From positions 32,001 through 96,000 of the forward strand of contig JBHLRS010000006.1 in NCBI GenBank assembly GCA_048882325.1: a stretch of DNA of 64,000 nucleotides, in the 5' to 3' direction. The notes under the pieces were generated by a model. It saw only the letters and a list, made by a program, of their open reading frames with translations, had not been told where the DNA came from and did not search any database. Positions 1 through 46,497 of the stretch are shown piece by piece (position 1 is the stretch's first letter; each line of letters starts with the position of its first letter). This DNA comes from Candidatus Thorarchaeota archaeon. GTDB lineage: Archaea > Asgardarchaeota > Thorarchaeia > Thorarchaeales > Thorarchaeaceae. The translations under genes were made by a program, and so were the position numbers.

Positions 1-1086
1 GAACAGAGTATTCTCGATACCGTCAAAGAGCTACCAGGAATGGATTTTGATGCTATTCCACAGACACTTCTAGCTGAGCGTGTTGCTGGAATCACACCTG
101 GCAGTCACAAGAAACGTGTTGTATTCACCACCTCTGGTGGTCGTGCTGTTGAAGGATGTATGAAATCTGCCATGGACTTGTCAGGAAAACGAAGGTTTGT
201 TGCCTTCAGACCCGCTTTTCATGGACGAACCGGTTATGCATTATCTCTAACATCATCAAATTCAAAACATAAATCTGGTTTTCCGCAGGGCGTTGATGTC
301 ATCCGTGTCTTCTATCCATATTGCTACCGGTGTCCCTATGGAACACATGTTGAAGACTGTAGCTTGGAGTGTGTTGAAGCCCTGCGGTATGCTTTGCAGG
401 TTGAAGGCAATGATATTGCAGCAACAGTCATGGAATCAATATCTGGAGAAGGAGGTTACATAGTACCCCCAGCAAAGGCAGTTCAGGGATTCTATAAAGT
501 GACAAAGGAAGTTGGAGCATATTTCATGTCAGACGAGGTTCAATCTGGAATGGGTAGAACTGGGAAATGGTGTGCTGTGGAGAATTATGGTGTAGTTCCT
601 GACTATATCTCAATGGGCAAAGCAATCGGTGGTGGTTATCCACTGGGTGCATCAATTGGTCCTGCTCCAATGTTTTCTGGAGGCGCTCGACACTCCGAAA
701 CATTCTCTGCAGAGCCAAAGATGTCCTTACTTTCATTGTGGATATTCAAACACATGGAGGATGGAAACTATCTCAAGAAAAATGCTGAGAAAGGCGCCTA
801 TCTATTGAAGCAGTTCAATGATCTCATGGACAAGTATGAGGTTATTGGAGATGTCAGAGGTATCGGTCTTATGGCTGGTATCGAATTTGTGAAGGATAAG
901 AAGTCAAAAGAGAAAGCATCCAAGCTTCGTGATGAGATTCTCAAGAATGCTGTCCAGAAACAGAAACTATGGGTACTTGGTTGTGGTCAGAACGTAATCA
1001 GGTTTATGCCTAGTTATGTCATAACTAACGAAGAGTTAGACGAAGCTGTAGCCCGACTTGACAAGGCAATTAGTGCTTGTGTCTAA
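1..1086 (+). CDS. Class-III PLP-dependent aminotransferase (4-aminobutyrate/ornithine aminotransferase-like), 5'-truncated by window edge
   Basis: Frame is open from base 1. Motifs AFHGRT, DEVQSGMGRTG, GKAIGGG (PLP Lys), DVRGIGLMAGIEFV. Confidence 0.9.
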   Translation, partial: EQSILDTVKELPGMDFDAIPQTLLAERVAGITPGSHKKRVVFTTSGGRAVEGCMKSAMDLSGKRRFVAFRPAFHGRTGYALSLTSSNSKHKSGFPQGVDVIRVFYPYCYRCPYGTHVEDCSLECVEALRYALQVEGNDIAATVMESISGEGGYIVPPAKAVQGFYKVTKEVGAYFMSDEVQSGMGRTGKWCAVENYGVVPDYISMGKAIGGGYPLGASIGPAPMFSGGARHSETFSAEPKMSLLSLWIFKHMEDGNYLKKNAEKGAYLLKQFNDLMDKYEVIGDVRGIGLMAGIEFVKDKKSKEKASKLRDEILKNAVQKQKLWVLGCGQNVIRFMPSYVITNEELDEAVARLDKAISACV

Positions 1087-21000: not shown

Positions 21001-24000
21001 AGTCTGATAATTCGGACCTTTAGAGAAGGTGAACATTACCAAGTAACTACCGAGACCATCTGTGTCCGTACTTGGTAATTCGATTCTATACTGGTCACCT
21101 GTCCAACTAATACTCAAAGAATACGTCCAGTTATGGTTGATAGTTGCTCCGAGGATAGGTGCGTCATGTGTGATATCCCAATAGTCTGCGTAAAAGACTG
21201 CAGTGTCTCCAACTGGCAAATCTATGATAGAAACTGATGATCTAGCGTAGGCATATGCAATTTGGACAAGAATTTGAAAAGTCAGTGTTTTTGCTTGGTA
21301 TCCGTTTGCATCTGCTGTTAGATTAACCTCATGAGTACCGAGGTCCCATCCCTGTACAATGATCAGAACCTCATACACTCCGTTTCCGGTGTGTCGCCAG
21401 ACAATCGATGCCCCCTCTGAAGTTATTGTACCGATAGTTATGTTCTGTACATGATCAATGTCAACATACGACAATGTGACGGTGACATTTGTGTCAAAAC
21501 TTGTTGTCACTGTAGGATAGTCTGGTGATGATAGATATGTAAGAATCGGACGGTATGAAAACGTAACCTCTGGTGTGCTGCTGTCCGTATAGTTTTCTGC
21601 TGGCAGGAAATCAACAAAGACCTTTATCTTGTATTGCCCTTCAAGAAATCTTGTACTATCAATTGTGATTTGATAGACCCCTTCTCCGAGGTTTATGAAA
21701 CTCTCGAAGGTGTAAGGGTTCCCTGTTTCGTTAGTAGCACTAAAGTAAGACTGGTCAAGTCCCGTAATTGGCGTACCATCTATTGGATTTCCCGGCTCAC
21801 TGACGTTCACGTATACAAACATCACAAAGTCATTTCCATTTGGAAATGGCTCAAGCGGATCCCAACTCAGGTATACATTCAGTTTTCGAATCTCAAGTTG
21901 GATTTCGAGGTAAGAATCCATATAGAATCTCGGAGCTCCAATTGCATTGATTGTCACATTGATTGTATACGACCCAATGGCCCAACCACTTGTATCCAAC
22001 CAGAAACTGAACGCAGGGAAACTATCGCTTCCTGTGCCCCAATCCAGATTCACCTGACTCAGATTTCCACCACCAATTGATACTGAGTAAAGGTCCAAAT
22101 CCAGCCAAGAAACATCAAAGTACGCATCAGTGCCCACTGGTATTGTTGAGTTATAGTTTATACTTGGTGTTGTTCTATGGGCTAGAATTGTGATACTTAT
22201 AGTTGACATTGATGATTGGTAATTCTGTTTTGAGAATGTCAAATTGAAGTAGTAGGTCCCAGGAGTAAAGGAACTGACATCGATTGTTAGGCTGTAGTAG
22301 CCGCCTCCATCGTCATTAAGTTGAGTCTGAACAAATGGGGATATTGATATTGAGCCTCCATCAACTCCAATTCCCGCATGGTCAACATCAGACCAGTATA
22401 TGCTAGTATTAGCCTGATGTCCCCATGGCGACTCAACAGCATCAGGGTTAAGAGGGGTTACTTCAGTAGCAATGCCTCGATAATTGAATTGAACATCAAT
22501 ATTACTACTCAGTAGGTATGAAGTACTTGGGGATGTCGTGAACCTAAATGTATGTTCTCCAACGGAGAAACCTGTACTATCAATTGTTACTAGATATGTT
22601 CCATTTCCATAATCTGTTGGTAAACCTAGTATTGTCGCATTACAAGAAATAGTGGCACCTGTCAATGGGGTATTATCGAATTTGTCTCTAAGTGTCAGTT
22701 TAACCTCAAAATTACCTCCATATGGTGTGTCCTTAGGCGGTTCGTACGTGAGGAAGGTTCTATGAGAGAGATCCAAATAGAAGAAGTCTGTTGCATTTGT
22801 ATAGAATGGATGTGATGACTCAAGATCTAACCTCCATCGCCCATAGCTTCCCAGATCAGATGTATTGAGTGTCGTCCCATATCTGCCATCTCCATAGTCA
22901 TTGAGCTGGACATTAGTTGGTACTCCACTAACACTCCAGTTCATCGAAACTTCTGCTCCACTTAACATTGCAGTAGTCAATGTATCTTTCAGTTCAAACT
23001 CAACATAGAGCTGTTCTCCAATGAGTTTGGTCGAAATTCCATCTGCTATCGCATCTCCAGGTGCTATGAGACCTAATGAAGTCCCACGTTTCACAATGAA
23101 ACTTCTAGAAAACGTGCCCACCCTGTAATTTACATCAGAACTGCTATCACTATATCGGGCTGATGCATGCCAGACTCCTGCGGGAGCAGAGGCATCCAGA
23201 TTAATAGGGGCAGATTCCGAATATCCACTAGTTTCTTCCGAACTGACAGAATAGAAAACACTTGGATTATTCTGGTTCTCGAACTCAGTATTAATCCACG
23301 CACTAGATCGTGCAATATCGGAAATTCGCACTTCATCGATCTGCCCTATCCATGGGAAGGTCCATGCTTTTCCCTCTGGCTGGTCTGCATGCCCAATTCG
23401 GAATGAATCCGGAAGGGCTGACAAGATATTTGTTGTCATCTCCATTGTTGCTGCGTCTTGGCTGCCATCAATATAGAATTTCACAAGGGAGCCATCATAT
23501 GTGGCAACTACATGGTGCCACCCATTGGGCGCAATAGTCTGACTAGTACCCAAATCATAGGTGCCACCAGTAGGTCTAGGACCCAGATTAATCCTCATGT
23601 TTTGACTATTCTGAGACATGGTAAATCGATATCCACTGTACCACCCTTTGTGATTGAAGGGACCCATATTTGGATGTGTAGCGGATGGATACTGCATCCA
23701 AAGCTGAAGCGTAATCTGGTTGCCCGTAATATCAAGACTAGTGGCATTCCCACAGTCGATAAAGTGATCTGTGAAGTCTTGTCCGTAACCAATTCGTGTT
23801 GCCACCCTAGATGGTACATAACTGACATTTCCATCACCACCTTGCCCATGGTTATTGTAGAGGCTACTGTCTGCATATTCATCTACAAGTCCTGCACCAA
23901 TCTCTCCAAGATGCCAGACTCCTACATAGTTCGAATCCCAGACCGGTCCTGATGCATAAACTATAGGAGCCAATGGATTGTCGTAGTACATACTGATTAT

Positions 24001-27000
24001 TGTGTCACTTGAGCAAGAGAGCAATGGAACTTTTACCCATGCTACGAGATGCGCGTGAGTCAAGTTGTACGCTTGGTCGAAGAGTTCTATCTCATGTGAA
24101 AGTGTTTCTTCACCAATCGCGAATGCGATATCTCTACCATCAGGGCGGACATCTGTGCGGAGGTCTGTGTCGTATATGTCTATTAGAACTGGGAAGTTGG
24201 CAAGATCCTCTGCCACATTCTCATGACTGACTGTCAAGGTTTTCCTGTGATAGTATGGTAGTGTGAATCGATCTCCCTGATTTATAGTAGCTCCCGTATA
24301 CCAGGCTGAGCCTGATGGGTCTGTCAGCTCAAGAGCGATTGTTGACCCTGTAATCCACGAACTCCTTATTCTGAACTGGATGTCTTCACCCAATGTGAAC
24401 TGGTCGGTGGAAGAATAAGGTCCTCCACTTGGTCCAATTTGCATGTCAAGAATATGGTTTCTGTCTAGGAATTTGATTTGCCACATGCCATATTCATCAA
24501 TCGCTGTTGAAGCAACCGTTAGTCTACCATCAAAACATGTCCAATCCGATGCGTATGCTTTTTCAACACCTGAAGGGCTTGTAACAGAAAGTGGCCACCA
24601 ATCACCATCTGGATAGGAAATCTCGAATGAAATATCAACTATTTCAGACGGCGGGGAAATCAACACACCCGTAGTCCAAACTGGTACGCTTCCATTAGCA
24701 ATTGAGAAGGTTGTTCCTAGGCTGAAGTCATCTGCGTAGGTATAAAACGAAGTTTGGACTTCTAGTGTCAATTCAGCTCCAATTGTAACAGCAGACGCAG
24801 AGCTTGTTGTGAAAAGGTATTCTATACCGCTGATTTGTACCTCTGATCCAATAGAAAGGAAGGAGCTTGGATCGTTTTGATTGTTGTATTCCGTGATTAC
24901 CCAACCTGGAGATTGGACCGCAGTAGACACTCGAATTTCATCAAATTTCCCTAGAAAACGACTGGCGGTATCAAGTTGATTTCCTCCCCAAAGCCAATCA
25001 CCAAGACTTGCTAACTGTGTCCACTCTGTTGGTACATTTTCTGCGGCAAGAATCATTGGTGCTCCATCTAGGTAAATGATGACACTCTTTGTAGAATAGT
25101 CCAGTGTGAGCACAAGATGATGCCATACATTGTTTGTGAATGGGTCAGTGGCAAGGTTATAATCAATGCTGTTGCCACCCCAAGGATAGAAGAAGTGGTC
25201 ACCATCAGGTTGAACAGCCCATTCAAAGCCATCATCTTGTAGAAGTGTTGGTGGAGGAGCGGGATTCAATATGAACCGGTCACTGGTTGTCATAACTCGC
25301 TGATATCCTCCATCAGCGGAATCTACCCAATTGATCCATAATGAAAGAGTACCTGCGTATTTTACCGAATCCAGACTGGAACTTTCAGATACATTGATCA
25401 TGTCATCGACTCCATCCAACGCAAATCCACTTCCAATTTGCCCTGGAACGAGAGCTGAACCACTCATGGACCCCAAAGTTGCGCCATCATTATTGTATGG
25501 GCTACTATCATAAACTGTTCCTGTTGGAGTTTCCTCCAGATGCCACACACCTGCATAATTACCCCAGACCGCACTCGGATTTTCTTGAGCTGTCAAATCT
25601 GGGTTGCCATAATACATTGTGATTGTTGTGTCAACAGACGAGGAAAGGTCTGTTTTGACCCAGACCATTAGATGTGCATGTGTTGCATTATAGGTCTGGT
25701 CGAAGTAAGTAATCTCGTGTGGACACCAGCTTTGTCCGTTCCTGAACATGATGTCATCTCCATCAGATTGAACATCATTTCTAAGATCTGTGTCAAAGAT
25801 GTCAATGAGAACCGGGAAGTCAGTAAGGTCTGTAGCGACTTTTGCATGATCAACCACTAAATCCTTTTTGTATTGAAAATCAGTAGCTCGAGCTCTTGAT
25901 TGATATCCAACCCGGAGAGTTGTTTCCTCTCCTATTGAGTAGAAGCTTGACGGGTCATTTTGGTTTCTGTACTCTGTTGTAATCCAAGAGGCTGAGTGAG
26001 CAATACTTGAGATGCGGATTTCATCCATGGTGCCATTGACCATTCTGTCTAAATCAATTGTACCAGCTATGTTATCCACTGAGAGGGTGTTTGCACCTAC
26101 TGTTTCATCCTGTTGTATCCAAACACCATTAATATAGAGATCTCCAAAATCCCCTGACCTTACAAAAACAATATGCTGCCATGCATCCGCTACAACTGAA
26201 CTTGATGGGAAATCGAAATACTCAGCATCTGTAGCTGTTTCAACTCGTATCCTACCATTATAGTAAGAAATCCTATTAAGATAGGCATCTGCACCCATGA
26301 AATTGACTTCGCTATTGGGTCCCGGTGGAAATCCCACAGGATATACCCAAAATGAATAGGTTCCAGTGGACTGCGTATTAGAACTCTGCAAAGCAATGAA
26401 ATCATCTGTGCCGTCGAAATCATATCCATATCCCATGCGACCAGTAATTCCTTGAGTGGGTCCTCCCATTAAAGTACCATCTGGTCCACCAGAAACTGAA
26501 TCTCTCGAAACACCGGAGGTTTCTCCGAGATGCCAAACCCCCCAATAATTATCATTCCAGACACCATTCTGATTCTCCTGATTTGTTGCTGAGGGATTTC
26601 CGTAGAACATAGTAACAATCGTGTCAACTGTAGACGAGAGATTGGTCTTGACCCACGCAACAAGATGAGCATGCGTCGAGTTGTAGTTCTGATCAAAGAG
26701 CTCAATTTCATGTGGTAGGACTGTAGTACCAAGTTTGAAGATAATGTCATCACCATCTATCTGGACTTTTGCCCTCAAATCAGTGTCAAATAAATCAACA
26801 AGTAATGGGAAGTCTGTCAGGTCTGAGTCGACCTTCGTGTGGTCAACAGTTAAGTCCTTCTTGTAATCAAATTCGATAAGCTGCATTGATACTTCTGTAC
26901 CTACCGAATAGAAACCGGATGGATCGTTCTGATTTAGATACTCTGTCGCAATCCAGTCTGGGGAAAGAGAAACATTGAGGATTCTAAATTCTGAGATTGC

Positions 27001-30000
27001 TCCGGAGCCCCACATGTTTCCACCACTTAAATCGGACAGAATAGCTAATTGATTCCAGGTTAGGTGTGGATTTGCGTTATCTGCACTATTATCTTCCGCA
27101 TCCAATGTGCCATTCAAATAATGATATGCCCTTACCGCAGACATTGATCTTACCCATGCAAATTGGAACCATGTATCAGCTTCCCATGAACTCTTGCTTC
27201 CAGTACAGGTTTCGTCAATATCTGACGTGACCTCCATATGTGTCACGACCAAACCTGAACTCGCGGCAAATCTCATCAAAGGGTAGTCATTTGTTAGACT
27301 GTTTCCTCTGAAGAAGTGCATATCACTTCCTGGTGGGAAGACACTATCAAGGGCAAACCACGATTGAAATGTGAAATCATTTACAGGTCCTGAAATCCCG
27401 TTGATGCTAAATCTATCATCTAATCCATCCACAGCAATCGCAGTTCCTAGTTCACCGTCATATACCCTCTGGTCCGAACCAAATCCAGTTGCTGTCAGGT
27501 CATACCCATTAATTGTACTGTCTTTTATCAAGGAAGATGATGGATCTTGATTCATATGCCAAACCGCAACATAATTACTATTCCATACATCAGATGGATT
27601 CTCTTGATTACTTAAACCGGGATTTCCATAATACATCGAGATTGTTGTATCTACAGTGGAAGAAAGGTCAGTCTTGACCCAGGCGACAAGATGAGCATGC
27701 GTCGAGTTGTACGTCTGATTAAAGAGCTCTAGTTCGTGAGGCAATATTGTGTTGCCAATTGTGAAGATGATATCATCACCGTCAGATTGAGTCTTTGTCT
27801 GTAGATCACTATCAAAGATGTCAACAAGTAGTGGAAAGTCAACTAAATCTGCCGCAACTTTTGTATGATCAATGCTTATTTCTTTCTTGTAGTTGAATAC
27901 AAGGTCTTGAGATATTTCGGGACTGATTATACTTGTAGGTTCCGGACTCACAAAAGGTCTGAGAAACGCGTCATCTGCAATAACCGTGTTGGGTTCTGTC
28001 TGAGGTGCAGCCCAGTAAAAAACCGTACAGAACCTATCTATGCCCTCTGTTCCAAGATTTACTCCAGTTACTTCAATCTCAAGATTTCCGTCGAGCCATA
28101 ATCTAGCTTCACCGACAGTATCAGAGATCTTAGCCTGCATATCTAGTGTATGCCAAGAACCCGTGGAAATCGTACTTGTCGTTCCATAACCATATGCCTC
28201 ATCAACAACATCATTCCACATATACAGAGTCATGTCATCTCTAATTGTTACACTAAGTTGGTTTTGCCACACCGCGGAGGTGTCAACATATTGCATTATT
28301 GTGACATGATCGCTGGTGGAGAATCCTGCTGGTAGGTAGAAATGTACTCTTGCAAACAGATTCGATTTGTCACTGAAATCCTTCCAGACCATGGCTTGAG
28401 CGGCTGCCACATCGTCAACATCTCCCCTTACTGCATAGGTTCCGGAATGAACTGGAATCAGTGGTGTATTCAACACAATCAGTGTGTCACCAGTGTCTGT
28501 ATATGAACCATCCCAAGCGCTAAGATCCCCGCTCTCAAAACCATCATAGAATTGGAACACGTTCGTGTAGTCATTTGGTGGATTAGTAACAGTGGGATTT
28601 CCGTAGTATATGAAGTACTGATCATCGGAGGAGTATGCAGGAATATCCGTTTGAATTCTGAACCATATCTTTGCGGTCGCGGAATTCCAAGAAGAGTCAA
28701 AATCTAATATCCTGTCCAATTCAGTCAAACTTAGACCATTCCAGTACATTATCCGTAGATCATCACCATCAATTTGCGATTTCCCTGCAGCGACTAATGA
28801 TGCATGATCAATAGTCACTGAAGTCGTATATCCAGCAGGGACAAGTTCGGATCCTGAAGTAATGGTGACTTGCCTGCTGTATTCATATGTCACAGCAGTC
28901 GTGGTTTCAATTTCAACTGCATAGAATGAACTTGGGTCATTCTGGTTGTTAAATTCAGTAACAATCCATCCTAGATTTCTATAAGAGTTTGAAACCCGAA
29001 CCTCATCAATTCGGCCATCCCACTCTTGAATGAAACCAACTGACCCTGGATTATTGGCAATGTGAATTACTGATGTGCCCGTTTGAGTTGAGCCGGTGTA
29101 AGCTGCATTTCCACGCTCAACTCCATCAACATACAAGCGCAGTTCGCCAGTATCTGCATTTGCCACACCCGCAACATGATGCCACTGCCCATCATTCACC
29201 CAGCTTAGTGATGTTGTTACACTCTGAGTGTCGTCAACATAAAATGCGAGAGTCGAACTGTCCAATTTCCCTAGCCAATAGTTTCTGTGACCCACATCTC
29301 CCCATTTGGCGACTATCGCATCTGAAGAACCATCAATATTGTTTGTCCTTACCCACGCTTCTACCAGCATGTCTGAGGGAAGGACGAGTGAAGAGGAGTG
29401 AGGCGCTTCAATTCTGTCGTTGGTTGCCTCTCCGTAGAACTCAGAGCACCCGTCTATTTTCCCTGTCTGAAGAGTAGGTTCAGAGCCAAGTGGGTACCCT
29501 ATACCATCGTTTCCATTTGCTGTGCTATCGTAGACAGTCCCGGCTGGGTCTTCACTGAGATGCCACACAGCTGCAAAGGAAGTATCCCAGACACCATTGG
29601 GGTTTTCCTGACTCTCTGAACTGGAATCTCCATAGTACATCGATAGGACAGTATCAGTTGAAGCAGAGAGGTCAGCTCTCACCCAAGCGATAAGGTGTCC
29701 ATGCGAGGAATTGTATGATTGGTCAAACAGCTCAATCTCGTGCGGGAGTATCCATCCATCCTTCACAAACACAATGTCATCACCATCTGCTTGTACATCA
29801 AATCGAAGGTCTGCATCATAAAGATCGATAAGGACCGGAAATCCATAGAGGTCTGAGGCAACCTTGGTATGGTCGATGATGATGTCTTTCTTGTACATGA
29901 ATTCAAGTGGAACTTTCTTTGGAATTATGACCTCTTGCTCAACTCCCAGCGAATAGAAGCTGGACGGATCAAATTGGTTATTGTACTCTGTGAGAATCCA

Positions 30001-33000
30001 TGCAGGTGACCGTGCAACATACGATAATCGAAACTCATCGAGAGATCCATTAACGGGGGCTGAATCTCTGGATATCTGCAGGTCTCGGATGCTGGTGATG
30101 TCATCAACCATGCTTACGTCAACAGGAGTAGCAATCAAATTTCCGTCCATATAATATCTCATTAGATTATCAGATCTATCAACTGTCACAGCATAATAGA
30201 TCCATGCGTTGAGTGTAAAATCAACATAGGTGGATGATATTCTATCAACCCCATCGTTTACCAAGGCTTCGGTCTTTGTGGCGGCAGTATTTGTCGCAAG
30301 GGAATACCCTGGATCTGTCAATCCAGTAGATCCTTTGTATATTATATCTTGATAGTACCCTGTGCCACCGTCAAAGAATACCCAAATGCTGAAGGTCAAG
30401 TCGTTTGCTCCGAAATCAAGATCCCTATCCGCAGGATTTCCAAAATTAATGGAATCATCGATTCCATCCACATCATTTGCATTACCTATTTTACCAGATG
30501 CTCCTTGGGTGACACCTCCAAGAGGAATCCCATCATTATCATGTGCAGTTGAGTCGAGGGCATTACCACTAGTATCCCCAAGATGCCACACCCCAGCATA
30601 CGTGTAGCTCCATACCCCAACAGGATTTTCCTGACTCCCCATCGACGGATTGCTATAAAACATTGACAATACAGTATCAGTCGTGGATGAAAGGTCCATC
30701 CTCACCCAAGCTACCAAGTGAGCATGCGTAGAGTTGTATTGCTGGTCGAACAACTCTATTTCATGTGGAAGACTCCTGCCATTTGATGTGAACATTATGT
30801 CATCACCATCTGGTTGGACGTCTTTATGTAAGTCTGAGTCATAGATGTCAATCAATACTGGGAACCCTGTAAGATCAGATGCCACTTTATTATGGTCAAT
30901 AGTGATATCTTTCATATATCGAAAATTGACACCCTCTTCGCCTACTGTCAAAAATAATCCTGGATTTCTTTGATTATTGTATTGAGTTCTAATCCAGGCA
31001 TCTGATCTAGCAACAGTCGAAACCCGTACTTCATCAACAATACCATCAAAATAAGATGTTCCACCTGGATTATCGGACCTGCGACCAATTCTAAATGGAC
31101 GATTTGGATCATTCATAGATGCTGGTGTACCGGTTGTTATTTGGTCTACCAGCTCGCCATTCAAATAGAATCTCGCATATAATGAGGGTTGGAACACTCC
31201 CACGACATGGTACCATTGGCCAGTTTCAACACGTTCATAGCCAATGCTTGTGGTAGATACACCATCTGGACTAAATCTGAACATCACCCAACCTGCAGGA
31301 CTTATGGATGAATCAACGTCAAAACTGAGATCCCACCCACGGAAGTTGTTCTCAGCTGACTTGACAACAAGATAGTCATTATCAATAAAGTCCGCCTTGA
31401 ACCAAGATTCAACTGTGATTGCTCCAGTTATCTGCAGCTCTGCTGGATTTCCAAAATCAATGTAGTCGTTCACGCCCTCAAGATCAATAGCATTTCCAAA
31501 TTGACCGCTAACACTGTCACTAGATGTCATTGTCCCATAGGTTGAACCATCAAGACCTAGTAAAGTGCTATCAACGATTTGAGGTTGGTGCGGTAGATAA
31601 TCAGCTGATGTGGAATCCCATTGTGGTTGTGCAGGGTCATCATTCAGATGCCAAACAGCAGAATAGCCTGAGTCCCAGACATTCAGTGGATCTTCTTGAC
31701 TACCAAGGTCCTCGTCGCCATACACCATTACTAGGGTCGTGTCCTCAATAGATGACAAATACGGGACATTAACCCAGCAAACCAGATGTGCATGAGTTCC
31801 ATTTCCTTTCTTATCAAACAACTCAAGCTCATGAGGAATAATCTGGTCATTGTAAAGGAATGCGATGTCATCACCATCTGGCTGAACATCGATGTGTAGG
31901 TCCTCATCCCATATATCCACCAAGACTGGAAAGTTCTGAAGGTCTGAAACAACCCTAGTGTGGTCTATCACTAGGTTTTTGTTATATCGAAAGCTGGGAA
32001 TGGTATCACTCGGGTCTGGTGAGGTGAAGTCCACAAAGAGTCGCGCAAGATCTGCTTGTAAATACCCGCTTGAGCCCTTTATGTTGTAGTATTCGTAATC
32101 TGACGTGGAGTACGCGTAATCAATCATTATACAGATGTAGTTTCCGCTCTGCCAGCCGGGTCTCGAAACTACTTCCTGGATGAGAGCTGACACGTCGGGC
32201 GAGTCATATCTTCCGTTAGCGAGCCACGTTGTGGGACGCCAATAGATACTAGTGTTGACCCAATCATATCTGTCTTGGAGAAGAGGATATCCTGTTGTGA
32301 ATGCAGTCACATCATCCTCATCTGCGATATAGATCCTCACTCCAGGATTACCAGTTGCGTCGAAGGCGGCCTCCACTTGCAAAATAGCAGATGAGATTGT
32401 TGATCCTTGTGGCACATGTAATGGAAATTGAAGTCCGACGCTATATGGGTCTGCACTCGTCCAGTCGCCCGGTGTAAGTAAATCATTGCCAACATCTATG
32501 TAGCCATTGTCATCGTACCCATTCAGATCCACTCCACCAGCGCCCCAATTTGACGTATCACCACTATAACAGTCTCTGTTGCTCCCATCAGGAACATATG
32601 GTGAAACACTTCCCTGAGTTGAACCGGTTATTATAGCTCCGTTTGCTCGTAGGTCAATCTCCTCAGGAAACGGACGTACAAGAAATCTCAAATCAATTTC
32701 ATCAATGAATATTTCATGGACAGCAGCACCTGGAGGGTTTCCAATCATATCTGTTCCAAGACCAATGTCGAAAAGTAATGCGTTTTGAATTTCTATCGAC
32801 TGAAAATAGGATGAAGGAATTGTAGCCTTGGCTTCTAGCCATGTGTCTATGGGGGTGACGCTTTCAAACACATGGAACTTTGTAACATAGTCTTCCAACC
32901 TAGTAAAGACAAATATCATGTCATCCAAATTGGAAACACTCGAAACATAGTAACGGAATGTGATTTCCGCAGAGTAAACCTCCCTCCATGGAGCAGAGAT

Positions 33001-40913: not shown

Positions 40914-41705
40914 GTGCGGATTAGAATAATGAAGGGAAACGATCCAATGCACGAGCGACTTCACTCAGAACTTTACGCATCTATTGCTACGCTTGACCAG
41001 CTGAAGAAACTCTACGATCTTGGTGCAGTGGATATTCGGTCCTACCAACGCGAGTCACAAGCGCTTCTCAACGATGTTCGTTCACAGATTGAGAATATGC
41101 GTCGTCTGGGTCTTGATATTGGACGATTTGTGTCTAGTGAACGTATTATCGAGGTCTTTCCGGAAGCATCGACGCTCCTGCGACTTGGCAACCTTGCACC
41201 ACGAAGTACTCCTCAAGGGATGACTATGGACCAATTCTATGACTATGTTGGATTGGCAATACTTGATGTTGCCACAGAGCACTCATCACAGGGACTCATG
41301 GGGCTCGCTGAACTTATTGTCGAGGTTGTACGCCGCCTGCCCGAACTTGAATCAGTGACATACAATGATGTCATTGAGGCTGTGAACCGAGTTGCCGACA
41401 ACGGACTTATCCCTGGAATTCGGACTCTCCGTGGTGGTGTGAAAGTTGTAGAACTGAGGCCGCTTGAACTCCGACGCGACCAGGCTGATGTGATCAATCT
41501 AGCTGCTAGCAAAGGGTATGTGTCAGTGGAGGAAGTCATTATGCAACTCAAGTGGTCAGAAGATCATGCCCGACAAGTCTTATCGAGCTTGGTCGATGCT
41601 GGAATGGCTGTCGCAGACATTCGCTTTTCAACGGGTGGTCGATACTATTTCCCTGGTCTAAGAGCACGCGATACTTCGGATCCTCGAGGAACTAGTGCAT
41701 ATTGA
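40914..41705 (+). CDS. Vps28 N-terminal-like domain fused to EAP30/Vps22/Vps36 (ESCRT-II) winged-helix domains
   Basis: N-terminus SELYASIATLDQLKKLYDLGAVDIRSYQRESQALL resembles Vps28 AELYSII.TL..LEKAY..D.I....Y...C..LL. C-terminus DQFYDYVG..GLMGLAEL..DVIEAV..ELRRDQADVINLAASKGYVSVEEVIMQLKWSEDHARQVL..YYFPGL resembles EAP30/Vps22. Confidence 0.85.
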   Translation: MRIRIMKGNDPMHERLHSELYASIATLDQLKKLYDLGAVDIRSYQRESQALLNDVRSQIENMRRLGLDIGRFVSSERIIEVFPEASTLLRLGNLAPRSTPQGMTMDQFYDYVGLAILDVATEHSSQGLMGLAELIVEVVRRLPELESVTYNDVIEAVNRVADNGLIPGIRTLRGGVKVVELRPLELRRDQADVINLAASKGYVSVEEVIMQLKWSEDHARQVLSSLVDAGMAVADIRFSTGGRYYFPGLRARDTSDPRGTSAY

Positions 41706-41707
41706 TT

Positions 41708-42442
41708 CTATGTGGAAACGATAATTGCACCTCGTTTCTCATCAATCCATTCTGCTAATCCTTTCTTCACCATGATTGCCAGAACTATGTGAATATCCCT
41801 CTCTGGGAGAGTAGCAAAGTCTTCATCAACTTCTTGGATGACTATTGACTTCACATCAAGTCTAAGTTTTCCTGTCTTCAAAGCCCAATGGTATAGAATA
41901 TCTGCCCAATCCTCAAGTGGTTTCCAGTAAACTCTCAGCTGTCGTTTCTTTTTATCAACCCACTCAGCAACCTCTTTGTCCACAAGGACTGCCGCAATTT
42001 CCTTGAACGAATCGACTTTGTTCCTTAAATCCTTGAAAGGGGGCTCACTTATGAATGTCGCCAGAGATATAATGTGCACCTTCTTGTCCTCAGTCCACTC
42101 TAAGAGATAGTCTGACCATTCACCCGCCCAGAGTTCCCTGTCTTCTTCTCTAGTAGGCGTTCCATACATCCACTCAGTTTCTTCAACATCTCCCCAACTG
42201 GGCATGATAAAACCAGAATCAGTGGTCAGGGTTTCCATTACTTCTTCAGTCGCACTCTCAGTCTGTTCTTCTTGTTCTTCTGTTACTACAGGTTCAGTGA
42301 CCTCAACAACAACTTCTGGACTATGGATTTCTTCTTGCACTCTTGTTTTTTCAACAGAAGGAACCTCAACTTGCTCTTGTTCTACTGCCTCGGCTTTTTC
42401 CTTGGTCTTAGGTTTCTCTCGTTTTTTTTCTCTGACACCCAA
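41708..42442 (-). CDS. vps25: ESCRT-II Vps25-like protein with acidic low-complexity N-terminal extension
   Basis: WAGEWSDYLLEW, AEWVDKKKRQLRVYWKPLEDWADILYHWA, and a second WH ending GLAEWID. Directly downstream of vps4. Confidence 0.85.
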   Translation of the reverse strand: MGVREKKREKPKTKEKAEAVEQEQVEVPSVEKTRVQEEIHSPEVVVEVTEPVVTEEQEEQTESATEEVMETLTTDSGFIMPSWGDVEETEWMYGTPTREEDRELWAGEWSDYLLEWTEDKKVHIISLATFISEPPFKDLRNKVDSFKEIAAVLVDKEVAEWVDKKKRQLRVYWKPLEDWADILYHWALKTGKLRLDVKSIVIQEVDEDFATLPERDIHIVLAIMVKKGLAEWIDEKRGAIIVST

Positions 42443-42445
42443 TCT

Positions 42446-43654
42446 TTAGGAACCCTCCGCCCAGTCAATGTATCTCTTGACATCCTCTGGAGGGGTTGCA
42501 GGTCGAATGTTTTCTATTGCATGCAGGAAATCATCCCTGGATACGGGACGGATGTCGAGTATCTCCTGCTCATCATCCATTCTACCAGTCCGTTGCAAAT
42601 CCCTGATTGGTTCCATTGCCGCCTCACGACACACGACACTAATGTCTCTCCCACTGTATCCTTCAGTAAGGTCAGCGAGCTCCTCATATTCTACAGTGGG
42701 TGAGACCTCGATGTCTTCGATATGAATCTCGAAGATTTTCGCACGGGCTTCTCTGTCGGGAAGTGGAACATGTATCTTCTTTTCAAACCTCGACCGTAAT
42801 GCAAAGTCCAACTCCCACGGCAGGTTTGTTGCACCGATGAGCGTTACCCGGTCATCCTCATTACTCGCCAGTCCTTGAAGTTCAGTTAGTAACTGCGTCT
42901 TCAGTCGTCTCTCTCCACCAACATCATCCCCTGATCTTGACACCCCAATTGAATCCAACTCATCAATGAAAATTATTGCAGGTTGGTTCTTCCTCGCAAG
43001 TTCAAAGAGGTTCATGACGAGTCGTTCAGATTCACCAAGCCACTTGCTCACAATATTTGCAGCTGAAACATTGAAGAATGTGGCATTGACCTCAGAGGCT
43101 ACTGCTTTCGCTATCAAAGTTTTTCCGCATCCCGCTGGCCCATAGAATAGGATTCCCCTCCATGGTTGTCTCGCCTTGCCTATGAATAATTCCGGATGCT
43201 TCATGGGTGCTAGAATCGCGTCTTCAATTGCTTGTTTTGCATCTGCTAGCCCGGCTACTTCTGACATCTTGATACTCGGACGTTCTGTGATTATTGTATC
43301 AGAAATCATCTCTCTGAGTCGTTTCTCTTCCTCATCAAGCTCCGGTTCAGCACGTGTGGTTGGCACTGGTTCTGCAGTACTTTCATCAACCTTAGGTGGG
43401 GCAACAAGACCGTCAACTGGGCCATGCGATTTCTTCTTTATACCTGAGAGATATCTGACCCTGTCTACGCATTCTTGAGCTCGGTCAAAGTAGTGCTTTT
43501 TGATTGAAGGCAATGACGCAGAGTTTGACAGTTTGATGAGGATCTTACTAGCCTTGAGATACTCCTGGCAAGCCTCCTTCTTCATCCCCTTATTGTCCAA
43601 TTCTATTGCTTTGGCAAGTAGTGCTTTCAGCCCGTGGTCTACTCGATCCGCCAT
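42446..43654 (-). CDS. vps4: Vps4 AAA+ ATPase with N-terminal MIT domain
   Basis: MIT (AKAIELDNKG..EACQEY), PWRGILFYGPAGCGKT, SKWLGESERL, IIFIDELD, GATNLPWELD..RSRFEKKIHVPLPD, TEGYSGRDI. Confidence 0.95.
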   Translation of the reverse strand: MADRVDHGLKALLAKAIELDNKGMKKEACQEYLKASKILIKLSNSASLPSIKKHYFDRAQECVDRVRYLSGIKKKSHGPVDGLVAPPKVDESTAEPVPTTRAEPELDEEEKRLREMISDTIITERPSIKMSEVAGLADAKQAIEDAILAPMKHPELFIGKARQPWRGILFYGPAGCGKTLIAKAVASEVNATFFNVSAANIVSKWLGESERLVMNLFELARKNQPAIIFIDELDSIGVSRSGDDVGGERRLKTQLLTELQGLASNEDDRVTLIGATNLPWELDFALRSRFEKKIHVPLPDREARAKIFEIHIEDIEVSPTVEYEELADLTEGYSGRDISVVCREAAMEPIRDLQRTGRMDDEQEILDIRPVSRDDFLHAIENIRPATPPEDVKRYIDWAEGS

Positions 43655-43776: not shown

Positions 43777-44049
43777 GTGACAGATACAACTAATCACTAT
43801 CCTGTCGACATGATGGAATGGCGAGACTGGATCAAGAAGAATCTGGGTTATACAACAGAACAGGGAATCGAGTTTGTTCGAGCTGGCACTTTTCCGGTAT
43901 CGGAGCTTGTAGCGGTTTGGCGACAAGAATTCACTGTAGAGAAAGGGTATGTTGCTGATTTCATCCCGGCCTTAGAACGTAATAAGATGGGCTTCTTGCG
44001 TTGGATATATGCTGACGGAGCTGAGCCTTTTTGGAAAGAATCTGATTGA
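43777..44049 (+). CDS. Small hypothetical protein inside the ESCRT locus
   Basis: 90-aa ORF filling the gap between vps4 and ESCRT-III, with globular, Trp-rich composition. No family recognised. Confidence 0.65.
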   Translation: MTDTTNHYPVDMMEWRDWIKKNLGYTTEQGIEFVRAGTFPVSELVAVWRQEFTVEKGYVADFIPALERNKMGFLRWIYADGAEPFWKESD

Positions 44050-44132: not shown

Positions 44133-44750
44133 GTGAGATTCTTGAGTCCAATTAGAAAGGCATTCTCCTGGGGAAGAAAGAAACCAGATATTGGTGAGAT
44201 ATCCAGCCGTCTAAGGATTCTATCTAAACAACTAGCACGCCAGAGGAACAAGTTGGAAAAGGAGGAACGAGATACAAAGGCACGTGCAGTTCGCGCAAGA
44301 AAGGCTGGACAGACTGAGGCGTACCGAACATATGCAACAGAAATGGTACGGTTCCGTAGATATGCTCTCGCGGTTGATAAATCACGGTTACAAATTCTGA
44401 AAATTCTGGCTCACCTGAATCGCGCTCAGACATCCGCAAAAACCACTATAGCACTCCAAGAAGTTGCCAAGATATTAGGGATGCTTGGTGATGGCACTGA
44501 TGCTTCAAAGGTTGTTGCAAATGTCGATGAGATTGCTCGACGCCTTGAAGAGTTTGAGATTGAAGCAAGTATATCTGACGAAGCTCTCGATTCAACGATG
44601 GAAGTGAGTTCAGAAGACCTTACATTTGCCTTTCAGGAAATTGATGCTGAAGCTGGGCTCGCAGATACACCAACTGCTGCAAGACCTGCTAGCGAGGCTG
44701 AAACCCTAGAGGAAGATATCAAAGCGCTAGAACGGGAATTGGGAGTATAA
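44133..44750 (+). CDS. ESCRT-III subunit, Vps2/24/46 class
   Basis: Basic helical hairpin LRILSKQLARQRNKLEKEE..KAGQTEAYRTYATEMVRFR, acidic C-terminal half, C-terminal MIM-like LEEDIKALERELGV. Adjacent to vps4. Confidence 0.9.
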   Translation: MRFLSPIRKAFSWGRKKPDIGEISSRLRILSKQLARQRNKLEKEERDTKARAVRARKAGQTEAYRTYATEMVRFRRYALAVDKSRLQILKILAHLNRAQTSAKTTIALQEVAKILGMLGDGTDASKVVANVDEIARRLEEFEIEASISDEALDSTMEVSSEDLTFAFQEIDAEAGLADTPTAARPASEAETLEEDIKALERELGV

Positions 44751-44752
44751 TA

Positions 44753-46312
44753 TTACCAGAGCTGGTCTCGACTCTCTCTTGTTGCCCGTTCCATCTCACG
44801 CATGTTGTGATACGAATCTCTCATCAGATCTCTATATCGCCTGATGAAGTCCTCAGCAACAAGCTGACCACTGCGTAGCATGTGTACTGTATCCCGAATA
44901 GCAGTTTCAATTGACGCAGCATCTCTTCTCAGTGAGTGCATTCTTGGACTCATATCATAAGTGTGACTTGTACTCGGTCTCCTATCATATTGTCCAATAA
45001 CTCGATCGAGCTCCTCTCGGAATGACTCTGGTTTTTGGTAGTAGCTATCGTATGGGTATCGCCGAATTGGTGGTGAATCCAAATCACTGGAACGATGTCT
45101 TGGACCTGGTCGCATCAAAGGCATATCCTCACTATACTGTGACCTGTCATTTGTCGAGAGAAGTGAGTAAACCATTCCCTCAATCTTCAGTCGAACATCA
45201 CTAGTGCCGATATCAGTTTGTTCGATTTTCCTGACTCTCTGCATATCTGTTTGGATGTATTTGTCAAATTTTCTTGCAATCTCGATATAATCAGGTAGGA
45301 CTCTCTTTGTTTGGTCTGAGCATGTTGCTTTAATCTCGCCTTGTTTCAACTTCAACACAAGCCGTTTTCTTAGCCTACCGTCTTCCTCAATGGACTTTAG
45401 ATAGAGGAGGGGAAAATCGAATACCGTTTCCATCTTCTTGCGAACCCTGCCGGTTTCAGCAATGAAGAGGAGTCTCTTGTTCGTAATGTACAGAGTCCCA
45501 AACGCCTTGTCATTTTTCAGAAAATCACTCCCTGCTATCTTAACCTCTGGGAGTGCACAGACAGGAAGCTCACCTACTGCGAGTTGACCGTGCTCGTAGA
45601 ATGTGGTGAATTGTCCCTTGTAATAATCAAGACCATCAAGCTGTCGCCTCACATCCTTTAGTGTTCCTCTGAGGGGTTCAAGTGCCTCGTCAACATTCTG
45701 TTTGTAGTAGATCCCCATTTCTGTAATTCTGTTTGTTATCCCCTCAACGAATGGAAATTGTGCTGGTTTCCATTGTGTATAATCTATGAAATCCTTTGTT
45801 TCTGCAGCCATGCGTTTTGCTATGATTTCAGCTTGACTTGAAATCCTATTCTTGATTGCTGGTAGCTCATTTTGAATTCCTTCAATCTTCTCCTCTATCC
45901 ACTTGTAATGCAGAAAATTAGCCATCCTGAGGGACACAAGTAATCTCTTCGCGCTAGACAGTTTGTTCGTGAACTCTCTGAGTTTTGTATGACCATATTG
46001 GATGGTCATAATGGCATGTCGCATATCAAGGGCCAAGGTTCTTCTTCTATCTTCAAGGAGCACAACTCTCGATGAATGGCATCTTGAACAGATGTCCACA
46101 GTCTTTCTTCCTTTGCTCAGTTCCTCTGATTCACACTGAGGACATTTTTCAAATTTCTCGCCCGGCATTGGAGTACCAAGAATGTGGTGACATTCGCTGC
46201 AAACGGTGTATTCACTAGACCTAGATTCAAGACATCCTGAACACAGTGCAGCACCACAATCTTCGCACATATGAGTAGGCCTTTCAGTCTGACAGGATCT
46301 GCATTGTCCCAT
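44753..46312 (-). CDS. Zn-finger + coiled-coil + PH/GRAM(GLUE)-like + C-terminal steadiness-box-like protein (putative ESCRT-I Vps23/37-related)
   Basis: Six CxxC pairs at the N-terminus, long coiled coil, FGTLYITNKRLLFIA (PH-like), Pro/Arg-rich linker, IETAIRDTVHMLRSGQLVAEDFIRRYRDLMRDSY. Start taken as ATG 46312 (track start is TTG 46330). Confidence 0.8.
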   Translation of the reverse strand: MGQCRSCQTERPTHMCEDCGAALCSGCLESRSSEYTVCSECHHILGTPMPGEKFEKCPQCESEELSKGRKTVDICSRCHSSRVVLLEDRRRTLALDMRHAIMTIQYGHTKLREFTNKLSSAKRLLVSLRMANFLHYKWIEEKIEGIQNELPAIKNRISSQAEIIAKRMAAETKDFIDYTQWKPAQFPFVEGITNRITEMGIYYKQNVDEALEPLRGTLKDVRRQLDGLDYYKGQFTTFYEHGQLAVGELPVCALPEVKIAGSDFLKNDKAFGTLYITNKRLLFIAETGRVRKKMETVFDFPLLYLKSIEEDGRLRKRLVLKLKQGEIKATCSDQTKRVLPDYIEIARKFDKYIQTDMQRVRKIEQTDIGTSDVRLKIEGMVYSLLSTNDRSQYSEDMPLMRPGPRHRSSDLDSPPIRRYPYDSYYQKPESFREELDRVIGQYDRRPSTSHTYDMSPRMHSLRRDAASIETAIRDTVHMLRSGQLVAEDFIRRYRDLMRDSYHNMREMERATRESRDQLW

Positions 46313-46497
46313 TAGTGAATCTTTTGTCAAATGAGTACCTCCGGTCGTCTATTTACATCGAGGAGTTATCCAAGAATAACCCGTGTATTATTCGGGAAAC
46401 ATTGGAGTATCCCTCTTCAAATGTTCAGAAAGTATGTTCAAGCCATATCAGTTATAACCGGCTTGATAGGCTGGAGCTTAAATCAAAGGGGATTTTC

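What the first reader, a model, noticed from the sequence alone, without database searches (positions are those of the whole stretch)
44753..46312. Zn-finger / coiled-coil / PH(GLUE-like) / steadiness-box protein: a Vps23-like subunit with Zn fingers in place of UEV
Seen: CRSC, CEDC, CSGC, CSEC, CPQC and CSRC (up to 3 Zn; B-box-like with a nested ribbon, about 46312-46080). Then a long helical region, GTLYITNKRLLF (about 45460-45500), a Pro/Arg/Ser linker, and the C-terminal IETAIRDTVHMLRSGQLVAEDFIRRYRDLMRDSY (about 44800-44910). Known: GxLYxTxxRLxF marks GRAM/GLUE-type PH folds, and the TSG101/Vps23 steadiness box reads AIEDTI..L..AL..G.I....FLK.VR.L.R.QF. Inference: a cargo or lipid adaptor combining Vps23/37 and Vps36 features. 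Its stop is 2 nt from the ESCRT-III stop (convergent).
Basis: partly seen in the sequence, partly recalled or inferred. Interest (0 to 1): 0.85.

Follow-up and report, generated by a model that had tools for sequence, protein, structure and literature searches.

The report
Known Asgard zinc-PH-steadiness-box ESCRT adaptor

Summary

An AlphaFold2 model (pLDDT 86.6) and profile searches show five parts:
- a 12-Cys (3-Zn) head;
- a three-helix bundle;
- a GRAM/GLUE/bPH-type PH domain;
- a disordered linker of about 65 aa;
- a C-terminal helical hairpin, whose family profile hits the yeast Vps23 core (E 2.7e-7) and TSG101 (4.8e-5).

The family matches in 286 of 301 sampled genomes of the phylum, usually tail-to-tail with an ESCRT-III gene.

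This is the Znr_CC_PH_SB family (asCOG cog.011556; Makarova et al. 2024, PMC10936438), already proposed as an ESCRT-I-like membrane adaptor. This scan has reached the same verdict on other genomes several times.

Three results go beyond the paper:
- This genome has no canonical Vps23 or Vps28.
- A complex prediction docks the hairpin on the Vps28-like hairpin at the N-terminus of the neighbouring Vps22 (score 0.76, best control 0.02; possibly by likeness to solved ESCRT-I).
- In one genus the Zn-bundle-PH module is fused directly to the Vps22 winged helices, with both hairpins lost.

No experiment exists.

The parts
44753..46330 (-).
   Evidence: Homologue N-termini support the TTG start. There are 166 close homologues and 90 representatives at 50% clustering.
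46058..46309 (-). Zinc head, residues 8-91: six CxxC pairs (C10/13, C22/25, C30/33, C44/47, C63/66, C81/84), enough for 3 Zn
   Evidence: The 12 Cys are invariant in 56 sequences. The domain model has pLDDT 89.5. There are weak B-box/RING/ZZ and Zn-ribbon matches.
45599..46057 (-). Three long helices (92-136, 144-177, 189-244), the 'CC' of the published name; R135, H141 and E146 are conserved
   Evidence: AF2 model with pLDDT mostly above 90. A profile search gave no specific PDB match.
45272..45583 (-). PH domain (residues 250-353) of GRAM/GLUE/bPH type, containing GTLYITNKRLLF and several conserved basic residues
45158..45268 (-). Helices 355-391 that follow the PH domain and are conserved with it
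44951..45148 (-). Disordered Arg/Ser/Asp/Pro/Tyr-rich linker (residues 395-460)
   Evidence: pLDDT is 41-62. Length is variable among homologues.
44759..44947 (-). Vps23-type steadiness-box helical hairpin (residues 462-524)
   Evidence: The predicted interface with Vps22 uses residues 482-511.
44133..44750 (+). Convergent ESCRT-III gene of Vps2/24/46 (CHMP1/2/3) type; its stop lies 2 nt from the stop of the gene under study
   Evidence: Pfam Snf7. The closest solved chains are CHMP1B, CHMP2A and CHMP3. The convergent pairing is conserved in other families.
40947..41705 (+). Vps22-like ESCRT-II subunit (EAP30). Its first ~64 residues (40947-41138) form a Vps28-N-like hairpin, the proposed docking site
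   Evidence: EAP30 at E 4e-14 and a weak VPS28 match at residues 18-74. This is the best VPS28 match in the genome. The N-terminus is highly conserved. The fusion is published for Thor Vps22.
41708..42442 (-). Vps25-like ESCRT-II subunit with an acidic N-terminal extension
   Evidence: Pfam ESCRT-II, E 1.3e-14.
42446..43654 (-). Vps4 (MIT + AAA + Vps4_C)

Best explanation
The gene encodes a Thorarchaeota member of the Asgard Znr_CC_PH_SB family (asCOG cog.011556). It most likely acts as an ESCRT-I-like adaptor that does not depend on ubiquitin.

Proposed parts and roles:
- The PH domain, with its conserved basic residues, holds the protein on the membrane (inferred).
- The 3-Zn head, carried on a rigid three-helix bundle, binds a still unknown cargo or partner (inferred).
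- The C-terminal Vps23-type steadiness-box hairpin sits on a flexible ~65-aa tether. It docks on the Vps28-like hairpin built into the N-terminus of the neighbouring Vps22 (predicted, not shown).
- Docking recruits ESCRT-II (Vps22/Vps25), then ESCRT-III and Vps4, all encoded in the same cluster.

Shown here: the domain composition, the homology of the hairpin to the Vps23 core, the near-universal presence in the phylum, and the conserved pairing with an ESCRT-III gene.
For: Family and architecture:
- The paper describes this architecture and the ESCRT-I adaptor inference.
- Our protein is homologous over residues 8-392 plus the hairpin to a 676-aa Loki-type protein, P0140 (E 3.8e-30).
- P0140 sits in the same L35Ae / X / MetE / Snf7 context that the paper's table gives for its cog.011556 example.

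Domains:
- The AF2 model has pLDDT 86.6.
- The SB profile hits the Vps23 core at E 2.7e-7 and TSG101 at 4.8e-5; 32 of 51 members hit Vps23_core.
- The PH fold matches at Z 11-12.
- The 12 Cys are invariant.

ESCRT linkage:
- The gene is convergent with ESCRT-III here and in L005 at 31% identity.
- In 9 of 10 sampled genomes from 7 families a Snf7 gene lies within 10 kb. In 8 of 10 it is convergent and within 2.5 kb.
- The family profile matches 286 of 301 genomes of the phylum, and 88 of 90 high-quality ones. Some of these matches are weak (E 1e-6 to 1e-9) and may cover only part of the protein.

Docking on Vps22:
- The own genome (93% complete) has no Vps23_core or VPS28 match over the cut-off. 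Its best VPS28 match is the Vps22 N-terminus.
- Complex prediction: score 0.76, best of 3 controls 0.02. That mark was reached by 58 of 80 solved complexes and 2 of 110 mismatched pairs. Runs agree in at least 93% of contacts and partner pLDDT is at least 80.
- Rosetta-stone fusion: in genus g41 the Zn-bundle-PH module (P0150 residues 7-390) is joined directly to the Vps22 winged helices (residues 476-601 align with Vps22 113-239). Both hairpins are absent.
- Published yeast two-hybrid work found a Lokiarchaeota steadiness-box protein binding Vps22 (PMC9192718).
Against: - No experiment exists for any member of the family.
- The window's own hairpin is weak against Pfam Vps23_core (E 0.16, 12.5 bits against a cut-off of 26.8). 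The homology rests on the family profile.
- The complex pass may reflect likeness to solved Vps23-Vps28 headpieces (2p22, 2f66, 2caz, 6vme) and not binding by this pair.
- The genome holds other SB-like hairpins that could be the true partner: a free 109-aa protein and a UPF0182 membrane protein.
- Lipid binding by the PH domain is inferred from fold and charge only. The domain scores closer to prokaryotic bPH_3 than to GLUE.
- The Zn head has no assigned partner.
Confidence: 0.7

Rival explanations
1. Same family, different wiring. The steadiness box does not dock on Vps22. It pairs with another SB hairpin (the free 109-aa SB protein, or itself). The protein then recruits the neighbouring ESCRT-III directly at the membrane, in the way CdvA does in TACK archaea.
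For: - The tightest conserved gene partner is ESCRT-III, not Vps22.
- The genome has a free SB-like protein (L011:1363-1692, E 1.1e-4).
- The paper reports sequence similarity between the CdvA hairpin and the SB.
- Three family hairpins hit Pfam CdvA.
Against: - The complex prediction favours the Vps22 N-terminus.
- The Zn-bundle-PH module is fused to the Vps22 core in one genus.
- No ESCRT-III-binding element was identified in the protein.
- Binding of the free SB protein was not tested here.
Confidence: 0.18
2. The zinc head is a RING/B-box-type module that works with a ubiquitin-like modifier system, as an E3-like or modifier-binding unit. The protein would then be a cargo-marking or cargo-reading factor, not mainly a membrane adaptor.
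For: - The Zn profile hits RING and B-box chains: RNF4 at E 5.7e-7, TRIM2 B-box at 4.7e-5, TRIM28 and TRIM21.
- Some homologues carry a Pfam zf-B_box call.
- VIA-align gives Z 4-5.3 to B-box, RING and ZZ domains.
Against: - These scores are typical of Cys-spacing matches. Foldseek found nothing below E 0.06, and Z stays under the noise level the tool names (about 8).
- Thorarchaeota are reported to lack ubiquitin (PMC9192718).
- No E2-binding features were tested.
Confidence: 0.08
3. The protein is unrelated to ESCRT function, and the neighbourhood is coincidental.
For: Single-sequence Pfam hits are all below the cut-off.
Against: - The convergent pairing with ESCRT-III is conserved across 7 families, down to 21-31% identity.
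- The hairpin profile hits the Vps23 core.
- The module is fused to EAP30 in one genus.
Confidence: 0.03

Closest known systems
Asgard Znr_CC_PH_SB (also written Znr_PH_CC_SB), asCOG cog.011556; Makarova et al. 2024, mBio 15:e00335-24 (PMC10936438)
   Same: The domain order is the same: three zinc-binding sites, helical region, PH domain, steadiness box. So are the Asgard-only distribution and the ESCRT neighbourhood. The proposed role is also the same: an ESCRT-I-like component held on the membrane by its PH domain.
   Different: Nothing essential differs. The Thorarchaeota proteins are shorter (about 520 aa against 650-730 in Loki-type genomes) because the linker is shorter. The paper gives no partner for the SB. 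The docking on the Vps22 N-terminal hairpin is predicted here.
Vps23/TSG101 (eukaryotic and Asgard ESCRT-I)
   Same: The C-terminal helical hairpin is homologous to the Vps23 core / steadiness box. It is predicted to contact a Vps28-N-type hairpin, as in the ESCRT-I headpiece.
   Different: - There is no UEV domain.
- No stalk helix leads straight into the SB. The helical region is modelled as three long helices within one chain, and it is separated from the SB by a PH domain and a disordered linker.
- The zinc head and PH domain have no counterpart in Vps23.
Vps36/EAP45 (eukaryotic ESCRT-II)
   Same: - The PH domain resembles GLUE: the best PDB sequence hit of the PH profile is the yeast Vps36 GLUE domain (2cay_A, E 0.049), the EAP45 GLUE domain matches at Z 11.1, and 14 of 56 members hit PF11605.
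- Zinc fingers occur in the same protein as the PH domain, as in yeast Vps36.
   Different: - This protein has no EAP30 winged helices.
- The zinc sites are N-terminal, not inserted in the PH domain.
- The PH domain scores at least as well against bPH_3 and GRAM.
- Only the g41 fusion proteins (P0150) have the Vps36-like order.
CdvA (TACK archaea)
   Same: It is a membrane-proximal adaptor encoded next to ESCRT-III. Its helical hairpin is reported to resemble the SB.
   Different: CdvA has a PRC barrel and a C-terminal peptide that binds the CdvB winged helix. Neither is present here.

Membership tests
Znr_CC_PH_SB (asCOG cog.011556) | Three zinc-binding modules at the N-terminus | tested here: met
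   Six CxxC pairs; the 12 Cys are invariant in 56 homologues. The domain model is confident.
Znr_CC_PH_SB (asCOG cog.011556) | Long helical / coiled-coil region | tested here: met
   Helices 92-136, 144-177 and 189-244 with pLDDT above 90.
Znr_CC_PH_SB (asCOG cog.011556) | PH domain | tested here: met
   Z 10-12 to many PH domains. 40 of 56 members hit bPH_3.
Znr_CC_PH_SB (asCOG cog.011556) | C-terminal steadiness box | tested here: met
   The family profile hits the Vps23 core at E 2.7e-7. 32 of 51 members hit Vps23_core. The modelled hairpin is at 462-524.
Znr_CC_PH_SB (asCOG cog.011556) | Sequence homology to a listed member of the asCOG | tested here: inconclusive
   The paper's table as held is cut and shows only the Lokiarchaeum GC14_75 entry, with no sequence. 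Indirect support: P0140 (E 3.8e-30 to our protein) lies in the same L35Ae / X / MetE / Snf7 context as that entry.
Vps23/TSG101 | N-terminal UEV domain | tested here: not met
   There is no UEV/UQ_con hit. The N-terminus is a zinc head.
Vps23/TSG101 | Vps23_core (PF09454) over the Pfam cut-off | tested here: not met
   The own sequence scores E 0.16, 12.5 bits, against a cut-off of 26.8. The homology is seen only at the level of the family profile.
Vps23/TSG101 | Stalk helix continuous with the steadiness box | tested here: not met
   In the model, the PH domain and a ~65-aa region with pLDDT under 62 separate the helical bundle from the hairpin.
Vps36/EAP45 | GLUE domain (PF11605) | tested here: inconclusive
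   The own sequence has no PF11605 hit. 14 of 56 members do, best E 2.3e-5. 2cay_A matches at E 0.049. Z 11.1 to 2hth_B is tied with other PH domains.
Vps36/EAP45 | EAP30 tandem winged helices | tested here: not met
   No EAP30 hit in this protein. It is present only in the g41 fusion P0150.
B-box / RING cross-brace zinc fingers | Two zinc sites bound in cross-brace order | tested here: inconclusive
   The sequence profile hits RING and B-box chains. Foldseek finds nothing below E 0.06. VIA-align gives Z 5.3 to the COL2 B-box over 3..91 and Z 5.3 to a Zn ribbon over 33..74. Model coordinates could not be inspected for ligand pairing.
GRAM domain (PF02893) | Score over the Pfam cut-off | tested here: not met
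   16.2 bits against a cut-off of 23.6 for the isolated domain. The fold is nevertheless closest to MTMR2 PH-GRAM, Z 12.2.

The most novel reading that the evidence does not exclude
In ubiquitin-less Thorarchaeota this protein is the only Vps23-type subunit. It plugs its steadiness box straight into the Vps28-type hairpin built into Vps22. That would give a two-gene bridge from membrane or cargo to ESCRT-II, replacing the whole eukaryotic ESCRT-0/I layer. The same Zn-PH module, fused to the Vps22 core in one lineage, would show how a Vps36-like subunit can arise.
Probability: 0.35. Interest if true: 0.6.

Novelty: already known. Interest (0 to 1): 0.3.

Why it matters
The family is one of the few ESCRT parts that are nearly universal in Asgard archaea yet absent from eukaryotes. 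It combines features that eukaryotes split between ESCRT-I (steadiness box) and ESCRT-II Vps36 (PH plus zinc fingers).

Knowing what the zinc head and PH domain bind would show how a ubiquitin-free ESCRT pathway chooses its membrane or cargo. The architecture and this idea are already published, so this window adds only a predicted docking partner and a supporting gene fusion, both untested.

Tried and rejected
- Single-sequence Pfam gave only sub-threshold bPH_3 and GRAM hits, so family alignments were needed.
- A profile of the helical bundle against the PDB gave only generic coiled-coil noise such as haemagglutinin HA2, designed bundles and chemoreceptors. No link to the ESCRT-I stalk or Mod_r could be made.
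- Foldseek of the isolated zinc head gave nothing below E 0.06. The wide VIA-align search stayed at or below Z 5.3.
- Foldseek of the whole model listed DH-PH proteins at rmsd of about 20 Å. That only reflects a helical bundle preceding a PH domain, and I do not read it as a RhoGEF relation.
- Canonical Vps23_core and VPS28 were sought in the own genome. Nothing passed the cut-offs, and the control genomes give equally weak hits.
- The reading 'Vps23 with zinc fingers in place of UEV' was rejected as a membership claim: there is no UEV, no stalk next to the SB, and the own Vps23_core score is below the cut-off.
- The paper's supplementary tables as held are cut, so I could not confirm that Thorarchaeota accessions are listed under cog.011556.
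- Several SB-like hits elsewhere in the genome look like the SHOCT-type 'G.I..EY' pattern and may not be true steadiness boxes.

Full report
**1. Observation**

The ORF list and translation show one open frame at 44753-46330 on the minus strand, 525 aa from a TTG. Close homologues of the same length begin MT(K/E)D.S.G.C, matching the residues upstream of that ATG, so the TTG is the likelier start.

The convergent ESCRT-III gene (Pfam Snf7) ends at 44750, 2 nt from this gene's stop.

The cluster also holds a Vps22-like EAP30 protein, Vps25 and Vps4.

**2. Anatomy**

HMMER against 1.8 billion representatives found 90 relatives. The word-indexed search found 166 close ones, all Thorarchaeota-like where named.

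An alignment of 61 diverse members fed an AlphaFold2 model with mean pLDDT 86.6. The model has these parts:
- a beta-rich zinc head (residues 1-91);
- three long helices (92-244);
- a PH-type sandwich with its C-terminal helix (256-353), plus further helices to 391;
- a low-confidence linker (395-460), rich in Arg, Ser, Asp, Pro and Tyr;
- a confident helical hairpin (462-524).

*Steadiness box.* The hairpin is present in about 55 of 61 members. A profile of 51 hairpins hits these chains across both helices:
- yeast Vps23 core chains 2p22_A, 2f66_A and 2caz_A (E 2.7e-7 to 4.2e-6);
- TSG101, 6vme_B (4.8e-5);
- VPS37B (0.03).

Scanned singly, 32 of 51 hairpins hit Pfam Vps23_core, best E 3.1e-7. 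The window's own hairpin reaches only E 0.16. The steadiness-box reading therefore holds at family level.

*PH domain.*
- The second-look structural alignment puts MTMR2 PH-GRAM first (Z 12.2, rmsd 2.6, 106 aligned). Lam6 follows at 11.7, the EAP45 GLUE domain at 11.1 and bacterial PH domains at about 10.5-10.8.
- The PH profile's best PDB sequence hit is the yeast Vps36 GLUE domain, at a marginal E 0.049.
- Of 56 members, 40 hit bPH_3, 21 hit GRAM and 14 hit Vps36_ESCRT-II.
- The domain is a GRAM/GLUE/bPH-type PH fold, not specifically a GLUE domain.

*Zinc head.*
- Twelve Cys are invariant.
- The profile hits RING and B-box chains, which is common for Cys-rich profiles.
- The isolated head modelled well (pLDDT 89.5), but Foldseek gave nothing below E 0.06.
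- The wide VIA-align search gave Z 5.3 to a tandem B-box over residues 3..91 with only 44 aligned. It gave Z 5.3 (rmsd 1.5) to a zinc ribbon over 33..74.

*Helical bundle.* A profile search gave no specific match.

**3. Context and distribution**

The family profile matches 286 of 301 sampled genomes of the phylum, and 88 of 90 high-quality ones. Matches in some families are weak (E 1e-6 to 1e-9) and may cover only part of the protein.

The gene is paired with ESCRT-III widely:
- A 31%-identical homologue converges on two Snf7 genes with overlapping stops.
- A Loki-type homologue lies in an L35Ae / X / MetE / Snf7 context.
- In ten further genomes from seven families, nine have a Snf7 gene within 10 kb. 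Eight of these are convergent and within 2.5 kb (coordinates compared).

The neighbour in this window is of the CHMP1/2/3 (Vps2/24/46) class. The genome's second ESCRT-III gene lies on another contig.

**4. What is known**

Makarova et al. 2024 (PMC10936438) describe 'Znr_CC_PH_SB', asCOG cog.011556:
- three zinc ribbons, a PH domain, a coiled coil and an SB;
- absent from eukaryotes and likely ancestral in Asgard;
- a likely ESCRT-I component whose PH domain is expected to bind membrane.

Their table lists a 650-aa Lokiarchaeum example flanked by L35Ae, MetE and Vps20. That is the context I found for P0140.

This scan's earlier follow-ups on other genomes reached the same verdict. I had reached it from the paper before looking those up.

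**5. How it may work in this genome**

Hatano et al. 2022 (PMC9192718) report that Thorarchaeota seem to lack ubiquitin.

In this 93%-complete genome no Vps23_core or VPS28 match passes the cut-off. The best VPS28 match is the N-terminus of the Vps22-like protein in this same cluster. The paper lists that fusion for a Thorarchaeota Vps22, and the hairpin is almost invariant among homologues.

I therefore tested whether the SB (455-525) docks on Vps22 (1-64):
- The score was 0.76, with the best of three controls at 0.02.
- That mark was reached by 58 of 80 solved complexes and 2 of 110 mismatched pairs.
- Runs agree in at least 93% of contacts, and partner pLDDT is at least 80.
- The interface uses residues 482-511 of the hairpin against residues 3-40 of Vps22.
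- Vps23-Vps28 headpieces are solved, so the pass may only show likeness to them.

A gene fusion gives support of a different kind:
- P0150 (601 aa) is collinear with our protein over the zinc head, bundle and PH domain (E 3e-31).
- It then continues into the Vps22 winged helices: its residues 476-601 align with Vps22 113-239 (E 3e-20; EAP30 at E 1.8e-11).
- Both hairpins are missing.
- The fusion occurs in two of three sampled genomes of one genus, next to Snf7. No SB-bearing copy of the module was found in those three genomes, which are 78-91% complete.
- A covalent link that replaces two hairpins is what one expects if those hairpins normally hold the two proteins together.
- Published yeast two-hybrid data also report a Lokiarchaeota SB protein binding Vps22.

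**6. Rivals**

- The genome has other SB-like hairpins. One is a free 109-aa protein. Another lies in a loop of a UPF0182 membrane protein. Either could be the partner, although some of these hits may only share a SHOCT-like motif.
- The tightest conserved neighbour is ESCRT-III, so a CdvA-like direct recruitment cannot be excluded.
- A RING/B-box-type role for the head is possible but weakly supported.

**7. Verdict**

The finding belongs to a family already described by computation, so it is not new. The predicted SB-Vps22 docking and the fusion argument are modest, untested additions.

Noticed in passing
L008:1641-3446 (P0150); also L045 (G053:C138:83409-85202) and L046 (G044:C95:9034-10839): In one genus (g41 of family f21) the Zn-bundle-PH module is fused to the Vps22-type EAP30 winged helices. 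This gives a Vps36-like domain order. Both steadiness-box hairpins are lost, and the gene lies next to a Snf7 gene. Its PH part hits Pfam Vps36_ESCRT-II at E 1.8e-4.
   Followed up: partly
window 40947-41138: The Vps22-like protein carries a highly conserved Vps28-N-like hairpin at its N-terminus. This is the best VPS28 match in a genome that otherwise lacks Vps28 and the Vps23 core.
   Followed up: partly
L011:1363-1692 (G000 contig C3): A free-standing 109-aa protein ends in a steadiness-box-like hairpin (E 1.1e-4 to the family SB profile). It could be a third headpiece subunit.
   Followed up: no
L010:655-3183 (G000 contig C35): A large UPF0182-family membrane protein has an SB/CdvA-like helical hairpin (about residues 272-341, E 2e-6 to the SB profile) between transmembrane segments. 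It may be an ESCRT client or only a SHOCT-like motif.
   Followed up: no
window 15010-33618 (-): A single open frame of 6202 aa. It was not examined.
   Followed up: no
window 43777-44049 (+): A 90-aa Trp-rich ORF lies between vps4 and the ESCRT-III gene. It has no Pfam hit, and its conservation was not checked.
   Followed up: no
L029:1360-1710 (G000 contig C1): A stand-alone 116-aa PH (bPH/GRAM-like) protein matches the family's PH region (E 7.7e-7).
   Followed up: no
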